Source of the DNA: Gemmatimonadales bacterium
GTDB lineage: Bacteria; Gemmatimonadota; Gemmatimonadetes; Gemmatimonadales; GWC2-71-9
Direction: 5' to 3'
Length of the DNA: 31,190 nt
NCBI GenBank assembly: GCA_025924275.1
Contig: JAICEH010000001.1
Location: 1-31,190, forward strand
Within the stretch, counting starts at the first letter, position 1. Each line of letters begins with the position of its first letter. Shown here piece by piece: positions 9,323-31,190 of this stretch. A model generated the notes under the pieces. That model was not told the DNA's origin. It worked only from the letters and a program-made list of their open reading frames with translations, and searched no databases. The translations under genes and the position numbers were made by a program.

Positions 9323-9419
9323 TCCTCACCCACAGGCTCACCGCATACCCCAGCAGGATCACCGCCGTCACCACGTACGCCGCCACCATGTAGGGGGCGT
9401 TCTGCGGCATCTCAGGCAT
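9315..9419 (-). CDS. ccmD: CcmD-like small membrane protein (34 aa, below the ORF-track cutoff)
   Basis: MPEMPQNAPYMVAAYVVTAVILLGYAVSLWVRSR*: single TM helix, Y..AY motif, basic tail; overlaps the ccmC stop (alternative ATG at 9410). Confidence 0.75.
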   Translation of the reverse strand: MPEMPQNAPYMVAAYVVTAVILLGYAVSLWVRSR

Positions 9420-10110
9420 CGTCGGCCTCCCGGAGAAGGGCCGCGCGGCGGAGGCCGATCCCGTAGCGCAGGGTCACGAAGCCGAGGTAGAGGACGGTGT
9501 AGGTGCCCATCGAGACCAGCAGGGTGCGGAGCATCGCCGGCGGCAGCGAGGGTCGGCTCGGCTTGAGCAGGATCGGCTGCGGGTGGAGGGTCCGGAAGAG
9601 GTAGACGCTCAGGTGGATGAACGGCACCAGCACCAGGGCCATGATACCGAGGACCGCGCTGAACCGCGCCCGCTCCACCGGGTCGCGCACCGCCGCCCGG
9701 AGCGTGAGGTAGCCGAGGAACAGCAGGAAGAGGAAGAGCGTGAGCGTGAGCCGCGCGTCCCAGGTCCACCAGGTGCCCCAGATCGGCTTCCCCCAGATCG
9801 GCCCGGTCGTGAGCATCACCGCGGAGAACGCGAGTCCCACCTCCGCGCTCGCTTCCGCGAAGAGGTCGAGCCGCGGGTCGTGCAGCCAGAGGTAGAGGAG
9901 GCTGGCGATCCCCACCAGCACGAACGCGATGAGCGCCCCCCACGCCGCCGGCGCGTGGACGTAGAAGATCTTCTGCGCCAGGCCCTGGCGTGCCTCGACC
10001 GGGGTGTGGGCCAGCGCGAGCAGGTACACCACCGCCATCCCGAGGAGGCCGAGGACGGTGAGCAGGCGGCCGGCCCGGATGATCGGGCCGGCGGCGGGCA
10101 GCGGGGTCAT
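9412..10110 (-). CDS. ccmC: Heme exporter / cytochrome c maturation protein CcmC
   Basis: WWD domain WGKPIWGTWWTWDARLT, IFYVHAP and LHP His ligands; ATGA overlap with ccmB. Confidence 0.95.
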   Translation of the reverse strand: MTPLPAAGPIIRAGRLLTVLGLLGMAVVYLLALAHTPVEARQGLAQKIFYVHAPAAWGALIAFVLVGIASLLYLWLHDPRLDLFAEASAEVGLAFSAVMLTTGPIWGKPIWGTWWTWDARLTLTLFLFLLFLGYLTLRAAVRDPVERARFSAVLGIMALVLVPFIHLSVYLFRTLHPQPILLKPSRPSLPPAMLRTLLVSMGTYTVLYLGFVTLRYGIGLRRAALLREADDA

Positions 10111-10787
10111 TCGTCCACCACGGCGGAGAAAGCCAGCGTGCACAGCGTGACGAACACCACGTCGTAGGTCCCGAGGAGCCTAAGCCACCCCAGGACCTCG
10201 GTCAACGGACGGCCGCCCAGCAGCCGGGCCGTCACCTGCACCGCGCCGATCAGGGGCGGCACCATGAAGGGCAGGATCAGCACCGGGAGCATCAGCTCGG
10301 CGAACCGGGTGCGCACCACCATCGCGCTCAGGATGGTGCCCACCGCCACGAAGCCGATGGTCGCGAGCACCAGCGTCAGCACCACCCCGGGCAGCGCCGG
10401 GCCGAGCGGGACGTTGAAGAAGAGCACGAAGAGCGGGAGGGTGAGGGCTTCCACCAGGCCCACGAACGCGAGGTTGGCGAGGAACTTCCCCCAGTAGATC
10501 GCCCCCCGCGGCACCGGCGCCAGCAGCAGCGCGTCGATGGCCCCCTGCTCCTTCTCGATGATGAACGCCCGGTTCATCGCGACCACCGCCCCGAACGCCA
10601 CCGTGATCCAGAGCGCGCTGGGCGCGAGGTCGGTGGTGGAGATGAGCGACTGGTCCCGCGAGAAGTTGAACACCAGCAGGGTGAGCACCGCGAACACGAA
10701 CGCGGAGAGGAGTCCCGTCCGGGTCCGGAACTCGAGCCGGAGGTCCTTGCCGGCGATCGCGAGCGCGGAGCGGACCGCCTCAGGCAT
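10107..10787 (-). CDS. ccmB: Heme exporter permease CcmB
   Basis: KDLRLEFRTR, LLPVLILPFMVPPLI; lies between ccmA and ccmC. Confidence 0.93.
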   Translation of the reverse strand: MPEAVRSALAIAGKDLRLEFRTRTGLLSAFVFAVLTLLVFNFSRDQSLISTTDLAPSALWITVAFGAVVAMNRAFIIEKEQGAIDALLLAPVPRGAIYWGKFLANLAFVGLVEALTLPLFVLFFNVPLGPALPGVVLTLVLATIGFVAVGTILSAMVVRTRFAELMLPVLILPFMVPPLIGAVQVTARLLGGRPLTEVLGWLRLLGTYDVVFVTLCTLAFSAVVDE

Positions 10788-11490
10788 CCACCAGCTCCTG
10801 GTAGCCGGCGAGGAACTCCTCGAGCGAGGCCGGCCGGGGGCCGAGCTGCGCCCACTGCCCCCGGGCCAGCACCCCCACGTGCGTGGCGAAGCCCCAGGCC
10901 TCGGCGAGGTGGTGCGTGACGATCACCAGCCCGCGGCCGGCGGCGCGCTGGGCGGCGAGGAACCCGCGGAGCCGGGCCGCCGAGGGCACGTCGAGGCCGG
11001 TGAAGGGCTCGTCCAGGAGGAGGATGTCCGGCTCGTGCAGCAGCGCCCGCGCGATGGCCACCCGCTGCAGCATCCCGCGCGAGAGCTGCCGCACCGGGTC
11101 GTCGGCCCGGGCCGCGAGCCCGGCCTCCTCCAGCGCCCGGGACGCCCGGGCCGCGAGGTCGCCCAGTCCGTACAGCCGGCCGGTGAAGTGCAGGTTCTCG
11201 CGCGCGGTGAGGTCGTCGTACAGGAAGGACTGGTGGGAGAGCAGGCCCACCCGGCGGCGCGCCGCGGGGTCGCGGGGCGTGCGCCCGTCGGCCAGCCGGA
11301 CCTCCCCCGTCGTGGGCCGCATCAGCCCCGCGAGGATCCGGAGGAGCGTCGTCTTCCCCGCGCCGTTCGGCCCCGCCACTGCCACCGCCTCCCCCGGGCC
11401 GAGCCGCAGGTCCACGCCGCGCAGCGCCCGCTGGGCGCCGAAGGCGCGGGTGATGCCGCGGGCCTCGAGCAGCGGGGCCTCAGGCGGCAT
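10780..11490 (-). CDS. ccmA: Heme ABC exporter ATPase CcmA
   Basis: Walker A GPNGAGKT, LSRGMLQR signature, LLLDEPFTGLD; operon context. Confidence 0.92.
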   Translation of the reverse strand: MPPEAPLLEARGITRAFGAQRALRGVDLRLGPGEAVAVAGPNGAGKTTLLRILAGLMRPTTGEVRLADGRTPRDPAARRRVGLLSHQSFLYDDLTARENLHFTGRLYGLGDLAARASRALEEAGLAARADDPVRQLSRGMLQRVAIARALLHEPDILLLDEPFTGLDVPSAARLRGFLAAQRAAGRGLVIVTHHLAEAWGFATHVGVLARGQWAQLGPRPASLEEFLAGYQELVDA

Positions 11491-11839
11491 CGATGCGCGC
11501 GGCCAGGTCGTCGAGGTCGAACGGCTTGAGGAGGTAGCCCACGTAGGGCAGGCCGAGCACCGCGAGCTGGGGCTCGATGCTGGCGTAGGCGGTGGTCACG
11601 ATCACCGGAAGCCCCGGCCGGCGCGCCACGATCTGCCGGAGCAGGGCCACGCCGTCGGTGTCCGGGAGGCGCATGTCCAGCACCAGCACGTCGGGCCGCT
11701 GCGCCTCGAGCTGCGCCAGGCCCTCCCCCCCGGTGGCGGCGAACGCCATCCGGTAGCGCCCCGCGAAGTAGCGCTCGTAGCTGATGCGGAGCGCCGGCTC
11801 GTCCTCGACGAAGAGGACCCGGCGGGCGGGGTCGGGCAT
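11480..11839 (-). CDS. Single-domain response regulator (receiver, CheY-like)
   Basis: VLFVEDE, LVLDMRLPDTDG (phospho-Asp), T, YLLKPF; no output domain; overlaps the ccmA start by 11 nt. Confidence 0.93.
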   Translation of the reverse strand: MPDPARRVLFVEDEPALRISYERYFAGRYRMAFAATGGEGLAQLEAQRPDVLVLDMRLPDTDGVALLRQIVARRPGLPVIVTTAYASIEPQLAVLGLPYVGYLLKPFDLDDLAARIDAA

Positions 11840-11882: not shown

Positions 11883-12188
11883 TCAGCCCTCGAACTCGAA
11901 CAGGTCGTCCAGCTTCGTCAGCACCAGGAGGAAGCGCAGCTCCTCGCTGGTCGCCCGGAGCGCCACCCGCAGGCGCCGCTCCGCGGCGCGGCGCTGCACC
12001 AGCATCAGGGCGCCCAGGCCGGCGGAGTCCACGTGCCGGGTGCGGGCGAGGTTGATCACCAGGCGGCCGCTGCCCTCGGGCAGCGTGTCGAGCAGGTCGA
12101 GTCCGGCCTGGCGGAACGTGGCGCGCGTCTCGAGCCCGAGGCTCGGGGGCGCCTGGAGCTCGCGCTCCGTAAGTTGGGTGGTGACCAT
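11883..12188 (-). CDS. STAS-domain anti-sigma-factor antagonist (SpoIIAA/RsbV-like)
   Basis: LVINLARTRHVDSAGLGALM with phosphorylatable DSAG serine, LTKLDDLF; GGAGG 6 nt before ATG 12188. Confidence 0.92.
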   Translation of the reverse strand: MVTTQLTERELQAPPSLGLETRATFRQAGLDLLDTLPEGSGRLVINLARTRHVDSAGLGALMLVQRRAAERRLRVALRATSEELRFLLVLTKLDDLFEFEG

Positions 12189-12280
12189 CGCATCCTCCGC
12201 TGTGGTCACCCGACAAGACAAGAGCGCAGCGCTTCGCCACGCCCTGCCGGTCGAAGTCGCCGCGCTCGTCGCGCGCTCTT

Positions 12281-12380
12281 CCACCTTCGGCACCGAGCTA
12301 TCTCATCGCCGGCTGAGCCGGTCGCTGAGACCTCTAGTTTTGCGGCCCCGGGTCGCCCCGGGTGTGCTCTTATCGGGCGG
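12281..12380 (-). ncRNA. GEMM-I (c-di-GMP-I class) riboswitch aptamer with A20, candidate 3',3'-cGAMP sensor
   Basis: Minus strand CCGCCCG-AUAAGA-GC-ACA-CCCGGG-GCGA-CCCGGG-GCCGC-AAA-ACUAGAG-GUCUCA...UGAGAU-AG-CUCGGU-GCCGAAGGUGG. Aligns by eye to the V. cholerae Vc2 aptamer (G21-C46, GNRA loop, C44, A47-A49, C92, G14-C93), apart from a longer P3 tip and a 1-nt shorter 3' strand. Confidence 0.88.
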
Positions 12381-12396
12381 TCGGTTCAGTTGTCGT

Positions 12397-12416
12397 GGAG
12401 GCCCCTCTTGGCCTCC
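12397..12416 (-). other. 7-bp hairpin GGAGGCC-AAGAGG-GGCCUCC at the predicted 5' end of the riboswitch transcript
   Basis: Perfect inverted repeat directly after the predicted sigma54 start site. Confidence 0.6.
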
Positions 12417-12428
12417 GCCTGCCGGAGA

Positions 12429-12444
12429 AGCGAGAGCGGTGCCA
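12429..12444 (-). promoter_or_regulatory. Sigma54 (RpoN) promoter TGGCAC-CGCTC-TCGCT
   Basis: GG-N10-GC spacing, one mismatch to TGGCAC-N5-TTGCW; predicted start near 12418, about 38 nt before the aptamer. Confidence 0.65.
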
Positions 12445-12543
12445 GCGCCGGGAGGTGGGCCCGGCGCAACGACTTCCGGGACTGCCGCGACACCGTCCCG
12501 AGCCCCGGGACGCACTGCGGAACGCCGGGAGGGGGGCGGAAAA

Positions 12544-12675
12544 CGGGGAGCGGGGAGCAGGGAGCGGGGAGCGGGTCGGCGGTCGACGGCGTTGGCGCGC
12601 CATCCGGTTCCGAGGTAGTCTAGGGGAAGTTGATTGGAGCACACCCGCTCCCCGCTCCCCGTTCCCCGCTCCCCG
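12544..12675. repeat. Inverted heptamer arrays (GGGGAGC / GCTCCCC): 33-bp arms 12544-12576 and 12643-12675, two differences
   Basis: Direct reading; 66-nt spacer; the right arm ends 2 nt before the acs ATG. Confidence 0.92.
12592..12621 (+). promoter_or_regulatory. Candidate sigma70 promoter TTGGCG-N18-TAGTCT for acs
   Basis: Motif and spacing; lies inside the spacer of the inverted repeat. Confidence 0.45.
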
Positions 12676-12677
12676 CC

Positions 12678-14630
<1,953 letters not shown>

Positions 14631-28166: not shown

Positions 28167-28182
28167 TGGCACTCTTGTTGCT
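28167..28182 (+). promoter_or_regulatory. Sigma54 (RpoN) promoter TGGCAC-TCTTG-TTGCT
   Basis: Exact TGGCAC-N5-TTGCW consensus, 50 nt before the GNAT ATG, followed by a GGAGG SD. Confidence 0.8.
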
Positions 28183-28232: not shown

Positions 28233-28658
28233 ATGGAAGATCCGGTCATTCGCGAGGCGGAACAGGACGAGGAGTTTTCGGCCTGGTTCGACGACCTGCT
28301 CCGGGCCGAGGGCCTCGAGTCGGGCGAACCCGTCGCCGTGGACGACCATTGGCTGGTCCTGACCGACGAAATCGGCGACTGGATCGGCGGACTGCGTTAC
28401 ACCGAGCGGGGCGGCGTGGCACACATGCTGGCCCTGATGGTACACCCCGGCCGGCGGCACCAGGGACACGCCCACCGGCTGCTCGAGGCCTTCGAGCGGC
28501 ACGCGATCGACATCGGCGCCCACGTCCTCGAGTTCTGGATGCCCGAGGACGAGGCCGAAGGGCTCTTCACCGGGCTGGGGTGGCGCCGGGTGCTGGACCG
28601 GCCCAACTACATCGGTGGGCGGACCTGGCACCTCCTGGAGAAGCGCCTGGCCGACTGA
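28233..28658 (+). CDS. GNAT family N-acetyltransferase
   Basis: LMVHPGRRHQGHAHRLL acetyl-CoA motif; A..LF..LGW. Confidence 0.88.
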   Translation: MEDPVIREAEQDEEFSAWFDDLLRAEGLESGEPVAVDDHWLVLTDEIGDWIGGLRYTERGGVAHMLALMVHPGRRHQGHAHRLLEAFERHAIDIGAHVLEFWMPEDEAEGLFTGLGWRRVLDRPNYIGGRTWHLLEKRLAD

Positions 28659-31069: not shown

Positions 31070-31190
31070 CCCGCACCCCGCTAGCCTTCCACGCACAACC
31101 GAGTTCCGTGGCGATTTGCGCTGATTGCGGCCACGTTAAACAAACCGCTAAAACGCCCGTGACCCAGCTTTCCCCCCATCCCGATCGCCC

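What the first reader, a model, noticed from the sequence alone, without database searches (positions are those of the whole stretch)
12397..12444. Sigma54 promoter placed exactly to transcribe the riboswitch
Seen: TGGCAC-N5-TCGCT on the minus strand; predicted start near 12418 opens with a perfect 7-bp hairpin, then the aptamer. Known: sigma54 needs an enhancer-binding protein acting about 80-150 bp upstream. Inference: two-layer control (activator plus cyclic dinucleotide). The expected enhancer zone (about 12500-12570) includes the GGGGAGC repeat arm and is shared with divergent acs.
Basis: partly seen in the sequence, partly recalled or inferred. Interest (0 to 1): 0.62.

Follow-up and report, generated by a model that had tools for sequence, protein, structure and literature searches.

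The report
Conserved sigma-54 promoter driving a riboswitch
A textbook-type sigma-54 (-24/-12) promoter sits just upstream of a cyclic-dinucleotide riboswitch in a soil Gemmatimonadales bacterium and is kept at that place in about ninety related genomes, so this signalling and cytochrome-maturation operon is probably switched on only when both an activator protein and the RNA switch allow it.

Summary
TGGCAC-CGCTC-TCGCT lies at 12444-12429 (minus strand). A perfect 7-bp hairpin (12416-12397) follows, then a c-di-GMP-I aptamer (12378-12286, 45.6 bits), a terminator-like hairpin, and a STAS / receiver / ccmABC gene run.

Taken alone, the motif is not statistically remarkable. The genome holds 22 such sites and about 19 are expected by chance.

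Comparative evidence settles it. TGGCAY-N5-TNGC occurs on the sense strand in 92 of 125 leaders of the orthologous STAS gene across the family. The rest of the same loci give 1 hit in 642 kb. The 5-nt spacer and the flanks vary freely.

The motif is present both in leaders with the riboswitch (57 of 62) and, about 64 nt before the start codon, in leaders without it (35 of 63). The genome has rpoN with an RpoN box and at least 7 activators with GAFTGA-type loops.

In riboswitch leaders a hairpin of variable sequence starts 1-4 nt after the predicted start. A family-wide block (TTGCA..GCGGAGTGC) sits at about -98 to -127. It abuts the GGGGAGC repeat arm but does not lie in it, and it is degenerate in this genus.

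The verdict is a real sigma-54 promoter and a plausible two-layer gate. The activator, the start site and the sign of the riboswitch remain untested.

The parts
12429..12444 (-). Sigma-54 -24/-12 promoter element TGGCAC-CGCTC-TCGCT (GG at -25/-24, GC at -13/-12)
   Evidence: The same motif sits at the equivalent place in 92 of 125 orthologous leaders, against 1 hit in 642 kb of control sequence. Spacer and flanks are unconserved.
12418..12418 (-). Predicted transcription start, 12 nt downstream of the C of the -12 GC (inferred, not mapped)
   Evidence: Follows from established sigma-54 promoter geometry. It is supported indirectly by the hairpin that starts 12-15 nt after the -12 C in 24 of 31 leaders.
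12397..12416 (-). 5'-proximal hairpin: 7 perfect pairs and a 6-nt loop, at +3 to +22
   Evidence: It folds as an independent module in all prefixes tested. In 51 non-redundant riboswitch leaders, 61% have a stem of 7 or more pairs against 9% of shuffles, with 44 distinct 5' arms.
12286..12378 (-). c-di-GMP-I (GEMM-I) riboswitch aptamer
   Evidence: Rfam RF01051, 45.6 bits (gathering score 35), the only copy in the genome.
12212..12245 (-). Terminator-like hairpin (12245-12221) followed by a U-rich tract: the expression platform
   Evidence: 11 pairs, 7 of them G-C, tail TGTCTTGTCG. It forms in the MFE folds.
12467..12475 (-). Promoter-proximal conserved element AAGTCGTTG (-57 to -49). Across the family it reads AA-N4-TTG, which resembles the reverse of the IHF core.
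   Evidence: A in 94% of leaders at -30 from the T of TGGCAC, TTG at -24 to -22, T in 86% at -9. Coordinates. The binder is unknown. One IHF-like gene scores below the NCBIfam cut-offs.
12512..12544 (-). Candidate enhancer (UAS) block: GTTTTCCG 12544-12537 and CCGCAGTGC 12520-12512. This is the window's diverged form of the family motif TTGCA-N15-19-yCGCGGAGTGCg.
   Evidence: the family motif sits at a fixed -81 to -85 from the T of TGGCAC in 30 of the 35 leaders that score above the 99% null. The window itself scores only 4.5 bits. The block is conserved among the three genomes of the genus, while the repeats next to it are not.
11883..12188 (-). First gene of the unit: STAS-domain protein (anti-sigma-antagonist type), preceded by RBS GGAGG
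   Evidence: Pfam STAS_2 / STAS. Orthologues found in 140 of 151 family genomes.
11480..11839 (-). Single-domain response-regulator receiver
   Evidence: Pfam Response_reg, 81.5 bits. Found downstream of STAS in 88 of 125 loci.
9412..11490 (-). ccmA, ccmB, ccmC (cytochrome c maturation system I), overlapping the receiver gene
   Evidence: Pfam ABC_tran, CcmB, Cytochrom_C_asm. ccmA lies downstream of STAS in 118 of 125 loci.

Best explanation
The site at 12444-12429 is a genuine RpoN (sigma-54) promoter. Transcription would start at about 12418 and needs an ATP-driven enhancer-binding activator, encoded elsewhere and not identified. That activator probably binds the conserved block about 95-127 bp upstream, possibly helped by a DNA-bending protein at the AA-N4-TTG element near -50. 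The transcript would open with a stem-loop 1-4 nt from its 5' end, most likely a stabiliser of the 5' end. It then carries the cyclic-dinucleotide aptamer and a terminator-type platform, which decides whether RNA polymerase reads on into STAS, receiver and ccmABC. Expression would then need two inputs in series: an activator signal for initiation and the second-messenger state for read-through. What is shown: the motif, its conservation, its constant position, the hairpin's structural conservation, and the presence of rpoN and activators. What is inferred: the start site, RpoN dependence, the enhancer assignment, the role of the hairpin, and the series gate. The sign of the riboswitch (on or off with ligand) is not resolved.
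For: The motif has the correct GG-N10-GC geometry. TGGCAY-N5-TNGC is on the sense strand within 400 nt of the STAS start in 92 of 125 orthologous leaders, against 1 hit in 642 kb of the remaining locus sequence on both strands. In 83 non-redundant leaders the spacer and neighbouring columns carry almost no information. The motif falls in two position classes: -157 to -283 with the riboswitch (57 of 62) and mostly -59 to -69 without it (35 of 63). So it belongs to the gene and not to the riboswitch. rpoN has the RpoN box ARRTVAKYR. Seven activators carry GAFTGA or GSFTGA and a Walker A motif. Consensus-like sites elsewhere in this genome lie in non-coding DNA before a pilin-like gene and pilM, both classic sigma-54 targets. 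No sigma-70-type promoter was found in 12100-12750. The hairpin starts 12-15 nt after the -12 C in 24 of 31 leaders, while the linker to the aptamer varies from 9 to 29 nt. An upstream motif sits at a fixed distance, and the composite of that motif plus the promoter occurs exactly once per genome in 5 genomes, always at this leader.
Against: There are no transcript data, so the start site and RpoN dependence are unmeasured. Position -14 is C (or G in relatives) instead of the usual T. The single site is no more than chance would give genome-wide. The candidate enhancer motif is degenerate in the window's own genus (4.5 bits). No activator gene lies on the window contig or within about 19 kb of the locus in 5 relatives. 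33 of 125 orthologous leaders lack the strict motif, although several of those carry looser GG-N10-GC sites at the same place. The fixed position of the hairpin could partly be inherited rather than selected.
Confidence: 0.8

Rival explanations
1. The conserved TGGCAC-N5-TNGC is a binding site for some other protein, or part of a longer leader transcribed from an unrecognised housekeeping promoter further upstream. An example would be the conserved TTGCA..GCGGAGTGC block read as a lineage-specific promoter. On this reading it is not an RpoN promoter.
For: Housekeeping promoter motifs of Gemmatimonadota are not characterised, so the negative E. coli-type scan is weak. The upstream block is conserved at a fixed distance and its function is unassigned. 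The -14 position is atypical.
Against: Both half-elements match the sigma-54 consensus at the exact spacing, and only they are conserved while the spacer is free. The motif is not palindromic as most repressor sites are. TTGCA and the following conserved bases are 20-25 nt apart, which does not fit a -35/-10 spacing. The gene upstream is divergent (acs), so there is no read-through source. rpoN and activators are present.
Confidence: 0.1
2. The promoter is real but is one of two or more. A constitutive sigma-70-type promoter in the same region supplies most riboswitch transcripts, and the sigma-54 promoter only boosts expression under one condition. The two layers are then not a strict series gate.
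For: Multiple promoters before riboswitch leaders are known for the Vibrio cholerae Vc2/tfoY leader (own knowledge, not checked here). The lineage's sigma-70 motifs are unknown, so they could have been missed.
Against: No second conserved promoter-like element lies between -12 and the hairpin, and the hairpin sits at the predicted sigma-54 start. Short leaders without a riboswitch leave only about 38 nt between the predicted start and the start codon.
Confidence: 0.08
3. The motif is a chance match in G+C-rich intergenic DNA and has no function.
For: The genome-wide count of such sites equals random expectation (22 against about 19). 7 of 100 window shuffles give 2 sites.
Against: 92 of 125 orthologous leaders carry it, against 1 hit in 642 kb of control sequence, with diverged surroundings.
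Confidence: 0.02

Closest known systems
Canonical sigma-54 (RpoN) -24/-12 promoters with upstream activator sites and an IHF bend, such as glnAp2, nifH and Pseudomonas Pu (own knowledge of the family)
   Same: GG and GC ten bases apart within TGGCAC-N5-T.GC. A conserved block at about -100 to -125. A conserved A/T-containing element near -50. rpoN and GAFTGA activators in the genome.
   Different: C or G instead of T at -14 throughout this family. The activator is unknown and not encoded nearby. The transcript begins with a hairpin and a riboswitch rather than a plain leader. The target is a STAS-receiver-ccm unit, which is not a described sigma-54 regulon member in the survey I read (PMC12316311 mentions neither STAS nor Gemmatimonadota).
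Vibrio cholerae tfoY leader: Vc2 c-di-GMP-I riboswitch combined with transcriptional control by VpsR, a c-di-GMP-binding enhancer-binding-type protein (own knowledge, not re-read here)
   Same: A c-di-GMP-I riboswitch leader whose transcription initiation is also under control of an activator of the enhancer-binding family, giving two layers on one gene.
   Different: VpsR works with sigma-70, not sigma-54. The leader has several promoters. There is no evidence here that the activator senses a dinucleotide.
Geobacter GEMM-I / GEMM-Ib riboswitches before cytochrome and electron-transfer genes (Kellenberger et al. 2015, as cited in PMC13194489)
   Same: The same aptamer class placed before genes tied to c-type cytochromes.
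   Different: No sigma-54 promoter is described for those leaders in the papers found. The phylum and the first genes (STAS, receiver) differ.
5'-terminal stabilising stem-loops of bacterial mRNAs, such as the ompA 5' UTR (own knowledge)
   Same: A stable hairpin within a few nucleotides of the 5' end, conserved as a structure but not as a sequence.
   Different: The 5' end is only predicted here. No decay data exist. The strand-specific G-U test was uninformative.

Membership tests
Sigma-54-dependent promoter | GG at -24 and GC at -12, exactly ten bases apart, within TGGCAC-N5-TTGCW | tested here: met
   15 of the 16 positions of the consensus string match (10 of its 11 specified bases). GG and GC are intact, with C for T at -14.
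Sigma-54-dependent promoter | rpoN present and apparently intact in the genome | tested here: met
   Sigma54_DBD at 216 bits on contig C63, open frame, RpoN box ARRTVAKYR. The genome is only 69% complete.
Sigma-54-dependent promoter | Enhancer-binding AAA+ activators with a GAFTGA loop in the genome | tested here: met
   8 strong Sigma54_activat matches. 7 show GAFTGA or GSFTGA and a Walker A motif.
Sigma-54-dependent promoter | The promoter elements are conserved in orthologous upstream regions while the spacer and flanks drift | tested here: met
   92 of 125 leaders against 1 hit in 642 kb of control. Information content is near zero in the spacer and adjacent columns.
Sigma-54-dependent promoter | Upstream activator site about 80-150 bp from the start | tested here: inconclusive
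   The family motif yCGCGGAGTGCg lies at about -98 to -106 and TTGCA at about -123 to -127, at a fixed distance. The binder is unknown and the motif is degenerate in the window (4.5 bits).
Sigma-54-dependent promoter | Transcription starts 11-13 nt after the GC and depends on RpoN and an activator | not testable with these tools
   Needs 5' end mapping and genetics or in vitro transcription.
c-di-GMP-I (GEMM-I) riboswitch | Covariance-model score above Rfam's gathering threshold, with an expression platform downstream | tested here: met
   45.6 bits against 35. Terminator-like hairpin at 12245-12221. Ligand identity and the sign of the switch were not tested.
IHF-assisted sigma-54 promoter | IHF consensus WATCAANNNNTTR between enhancer and promoter, and IHF genes in the genome | tested here: inconclusive
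   AA-N4-TTG is conserved near -50. The window has AAGTCGTTG, a partial match. One IHF-like gene scores below the NCBIfam equivalog cut-offs (90.6 bits against 115) and one gene is HU-like.
5'-terminal stabiliser hairpin | A stable stem-loop within about 4 nt of the 5' end, conserved in structure | tested here: inconclusive
   Structure and position relative to -12 are conserved. The 5' end is only predicted. RNAalifold on a sequence alignment found nothing and the strand test was neutral.

The most novel reading that the evidence does not exclude
A dedicated enhancer-binding activator with a single target recognises the once-per-genome TTGCA..GCGGAGTGC block. Together with the cyclic-dinucleotide riboswitch it forms a hard-wired two-input gate on cytochrome c maturation and a STAS/receiver partner-switching pair across Gemmatimonadales. 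If that activator itself senses the same dinucleotide, as FleQ- or VpsR-type activators do, the unit would be a protein-plus-RNA feed-forward loop on one messenger.
Probability: 0.15. Interest if true: 0.7.

Novelty: new variant of a known kind. Interest (0 to 1): 0.52.

Why it matters
Sigma-54 promoters are silent without their activator, and riboswitches act after initiation. A conserved pairing of the two therefore gives a clean natural two-input gate. I found no paper describing such a pairing. It also gives the first concrete, testable sigma-54 target outside the usual pilus and nitrogen genes in Gemmatimonadota, a phylum with almost no promoter data. It links cytochrome c maturation and a STAS/receiver module to both RpoN and cyclic-dinucleotide signalling. 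Sister lineages keep the same promoter without the riboswitch, which makes a natural comparison for what the RNA layer adds.

Tried and rejected
1. The genome-wide count of consensus-like sites does not exceed a second-order Markov expectation (22 against about 19), so I dropped enrichment of the raw count as an argument.

2. RNAalifold on a MAFFT alignment of 40 leaders predicted no pairs, because stems and loops of different sequence were not aligned. I replaced it with per-sequence hairpin statistics against shuffles.

3. I compared stem lengths on the sense and antisense strands to show an RNA-level structure through G-U pairs. The test was neutral (17 longer, 10 equal, 24 shorter).

4. 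The exact pattern TTGCA-N12-20-GCGGAGTGC found nothing in 5 genomes, because the TTGCA half is degenerate in them. The pattern GCGGAGTGC plus promoter worked.

5. I looked for a neighbouring activator gene. None is on the window contig and none lies within about 19 kb of the locus in 5 relatives.

6. I considered reading the apparent dyad in yCGC-GGAGT-GCGr as an RNA hairpin and rejected it. Variants such as GTGCTAGG break the pairing.

7. I considered a reverse-strand sigma-54 site in GCACTCCGC and rejected it. GG is not kept and the spacing is off by one.

8. The acs tblastn count used a wrong reading frame and is void. Divergent acs is seen by eye in many loci but was not counted.

9. MFE folding did not reveal which alternative structure opposes the terminator, so the sign of the switch is left open.

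Full report
**What is in the sequence.**
- Read on the minus strand, the acs-STAS intergenic region contains TGGCAC (12444-12439), the spacer CGCTC and TCGCT (12433-12429).
- With the C of the GC taken as -12, +1 falls at 12418.
- The next bases form a perfect hairpin: GGAGGCC 12416-12410, loop AAGAGG, GGCCTCC 12403-12397.
- After a linker comes a c-di-GMP-I aptamer at 12378-12286 (RF01051, 45.6 bits against a gathering score of 35). It is the only copy in this genome.
- A terminator-like hairpin with a U-rich tail follows at 12245-12212. Then come GGAGG and the ATG at 12188.
- The genes downstream are a STAS protein, a single-domain receiver and ccmA, ccmB and ccmC, with overlapping or close reading frames.
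- acs starts divergently at 12678.

**Is it more than chance?**
- Taken alone, it is not. The window has 2 sites with at most one mismatch against 0.32 expected, and 7 of 100 shuffles reach that number.
- The whole 2-Mb assembly has 22 such sites, against 14-29 (mean 19) in second-order Markov simulations.
- What differs from chance is where the sites lie. Many fall in stretches without codon periodicity, 20-140 nt before an open reading frame.
- The genes behind them include a pilin-like protein and pilM on a contig that also carries an activator gene. Others are Lon, a glycosyltransferase, an ATP-grasp enzyme and a receiver.
- Pilin genes are classic sigma-54 targets (own knowledge). I take this as a positive control that the canonical consensus applies in this organism.

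**The organism and its sigma-54 machinery.**
- The window is the whole of contig C1 of a 69%-complete assembly with 74% G+C.
- The closest public records that encode the receiver protein (94% and 86% identity) are titled Gemmatimonadales bacterium MAGs.
- rpoN is present, with a 216-bit DNA-binding domain and the RpoN box ARRTVAKYR.
- Eight strong Sigma54_activat matches exist. Seven show GAFTGA or GSFTGA and a Walker A motif.
- None of them is on the window contig.

**Comparative test.**
- The STAS protein has orthologues in 140 of 151 sampled genomes of the family.
- I collected 125 loci after leaving out duplicates, one weak hit and all loci from genomes flagged unpublished (G001, G017, G094, G159). 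No claim in this report rests on those genomes.
- TGGCAY-N5-TNGC occurs on the sense strand within 400 nt upstream of the STAS start in 92 of the 125 loci. It never occurs twice in a leader.
- The same pattern occurs once in the remaining 642 kb of those loci, counting both strands.
- In 83 leaders that are less than 85% identical over 136 nt, the five spacer bases and the columns on either side carry almost no information. The leaders are therefore not simply recent copies of each other.
- Several of the 33 leaders without the strict pattern have looser GG-N10-GC sites at the same position, for example TGGCAA-N5-TTGC or CGGCAC-N5-TGGC.
- This is the footprint expected of a sigma-54 promoter under selection.

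**The promoter belongs to the gene, not to the riboswitch.**
- I classified leaders with an HMM of the riboswitch region.
- 62 leaders are riboswitch-type, and 57 of them have the motif at -157 to -283 from the start codon.
- 63 leaders lack the riboswitch, and 35 of them have the motif, mostly at -59 to -69. That leaves a leader of about 38 nt.
- In a quick STAS tree, a 32-row clade (SH-aLRT 95) has the promoter without the riboswitch. A 71-row group mostly has both, with a few secondary losses. The deepest rows have neither (the tree has low resolution).
- ccmA follows STAS in 118 of 125 loci and the receiver in 88.
- Of 26 other c-di-GMP-I riboswitches in related genomes, only two have such a motif within 200 nt upstream. 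One of those two precedes a STAS homologue in a sister family.
- The pairing is therefore specific to this operon. The riboswitch appears to have been inserted between an existing sigma-54 promoter and the ribosome-binding site.

**The hairpin.**
- In 51 non-redundant riboswitch leaders, 61% have an uninterrupted stem of 7 or more pairs just after the predicted start. Only 9% of shuffled sequences do.
- There are 44 different 5' arms among them.
- The stem begins 12-15 nt after the -12 C in 24 of 31 leaders with clear stems. The linker from the hairpin to the aptamer ranges from 9 to 29 nt.
- In the window the hairpin folds independently in every co-transcriptional prefix tried.
- A structure kept at a fixed distance from the promoter fits a 5'-terminal stem-loop. 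The best-known role of such stem-loops is protection of the 5' end (own knowledge). This is an inference.
- A strand-specific G-U test gave no answer. RNAalifold on a sequence alignment failed.

**Upstream elements.**
- Two further conserved features appear when leaders are lined up on the promoter.
- The first is close to the promoter: A in 94% of leaders at 30 nt before the T of TGGCAC, TTG about 6 nt further on, and T in 86% at 9 nt before it.
  - The window reads AAGTCGTTG at 12475-12467 (-57 to -49).
  - AA-N4-TTG(AT) is the reverse of the IHF core. However, the genome's one IHF-like gene scores below the curated cut-offs, so I leave the binder open.
- The second is a block reading cTTGCAg, then 15-19 nt, then yCGCGGAGTGCg.
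  - Its second half starts 81-85 nt before the T of TGGCAC in 30 of the 35 leaders that score above the 99% null.
  - That places it at about -98 to -106, with TTGCA at about -123 to -127.
  - Leaders without the riboswitch have a related form at the same place.
  - The combination of GCGGAGTGC with the promoter at this distance occurs exactly once in each of five genomes searched whole, always at this leader.
  - Position and phasing are those expected of an activator site. No activator gene lies within about 19 kb in those five genomes.

**The window's own enhancer zone.**
- In this genus the block is diverged: GTTTTCCG 12544-12537 and CCGCAGTGC 12520-12512, scoring 4.5 bits.
- The three genomes of the genus are nevertheless nearly identical from about 12545 down to the promoter.
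- By contrast, the inverted GGGGAGC / GCTCCCC repeat next to the block changes its unit in one of them.
- The repeat arm (12545-12572) therefore abuts the candidate enhancer. It is unlikely to be the enhancer itself.

**How it most likely works.**
- RpoN holoenzyme binds 12444-12429 and waits as a closed complex.
- An unidentified activator bound around -95 to -127 remodels it, and transcription starts near 12418.
- The 5' hairpin forms first, then the aptamer. The terminator at 12245-12212 either stops the polymerase or lets it pass, according to ligand occupancy.
- The MFE folds keep the terminator in all cases, and I could not identify the competing structure. The sign of the switch is therefore open.
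- The result would be two inputs in series on STAS, receiver and cytochrome c maturation genes.

**Comparison with what is known, and novelty.**
- The promoter meets the sequence-level criteria of the sigma-54 family, apart from C (or G in relatives) at -14.
- The functional criteria (start site, RpoN and activator dependence) cannot be tested here.
- Full-text searches for riboswitch together with sigma-54 or RpoN-dependent promoters returned no paper that describes such a pairing.
- A 2025 survey of sigma-54 regulons mentions neither Gemmatimonadota nor STAS genes. These searches cover open-access papers only.
- Both components are well-known kinds. The conserved combination, its target genes and the phylum are new. 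I rate it a new variant of a known kind, of moderate interest.

**Earlier notes of this scan.** Earlier notes on this window described the riboswitch, the STAS-receiver-ccm unit and the inverted repeats. My results agree with them and add the promoter layer.

Noticed in passing
window 28167-28182 (+), gene 28233-28658 (+): A perfect sigma-54 consensus (TGGCACTCTTGTTGCT) lies in non-coding DNA 50 nt before a 141-aa GNAT acetyltransferase gene. It is a second candidate RpoN promoter in the window.
   Followed up: partly
window 12545-12674, compared with L035 (same genus): The inverted tandem repeat between acs and the candidate enhancer uses GGGGAGC / GCTCCCC units here and in L034, but GGGAGAG-like units in L035. 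The inverted layout is kept. Other genera show repeats of yet other units at the same intergenic place, for example L091 and L116.
   Followed up: partly
L009:1437-1452 and 1501-1586 (G011, same family): Another c-di-GMP-I riboswitch with a sigma-54-like site (TGGCAT-CCGAG-TTGC) 64 nt upstream. It precedes open reading frames without any Pfam match.
   Followed up: partly
G000 contig C21: 14897-14912 (-) and 7816-7831 (-): Consensus-like sigma-54 sites lie before a pilin-like gene (N_methyl motif) and before pilM. An activator gene sits on the same contig at 11733-12230. This looks like a PilR-type pilus regulon.
   Followed up: partly
Leaders without riboswitch, e.g. L071, L082, L041, L063 (about 30-75 nt upstream of TGGCAC): The short-leader clade carries extra conserved elements: GTGAG-N6-(C)TCAC, then the direct repeats TTGAC-N6-TTGAY, then GTTAG just before the -24 element. 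They may be sites for a further regulator.
   Followed up: no
window 31098-31172 (+): SAM-II (SAM_alpha, RF00521) riboswitch, 57.8 bits, at the end of the contig.
   Followed up: no
window 12478-12497 (-): A genus-conserved imperfect inverted repeat, GGAC-N12-GTCC, lies at about -79 to -60, between the candidate enhancer and the AAGTCGTTG element. It is not conserved in other genera.
   Followed up: no
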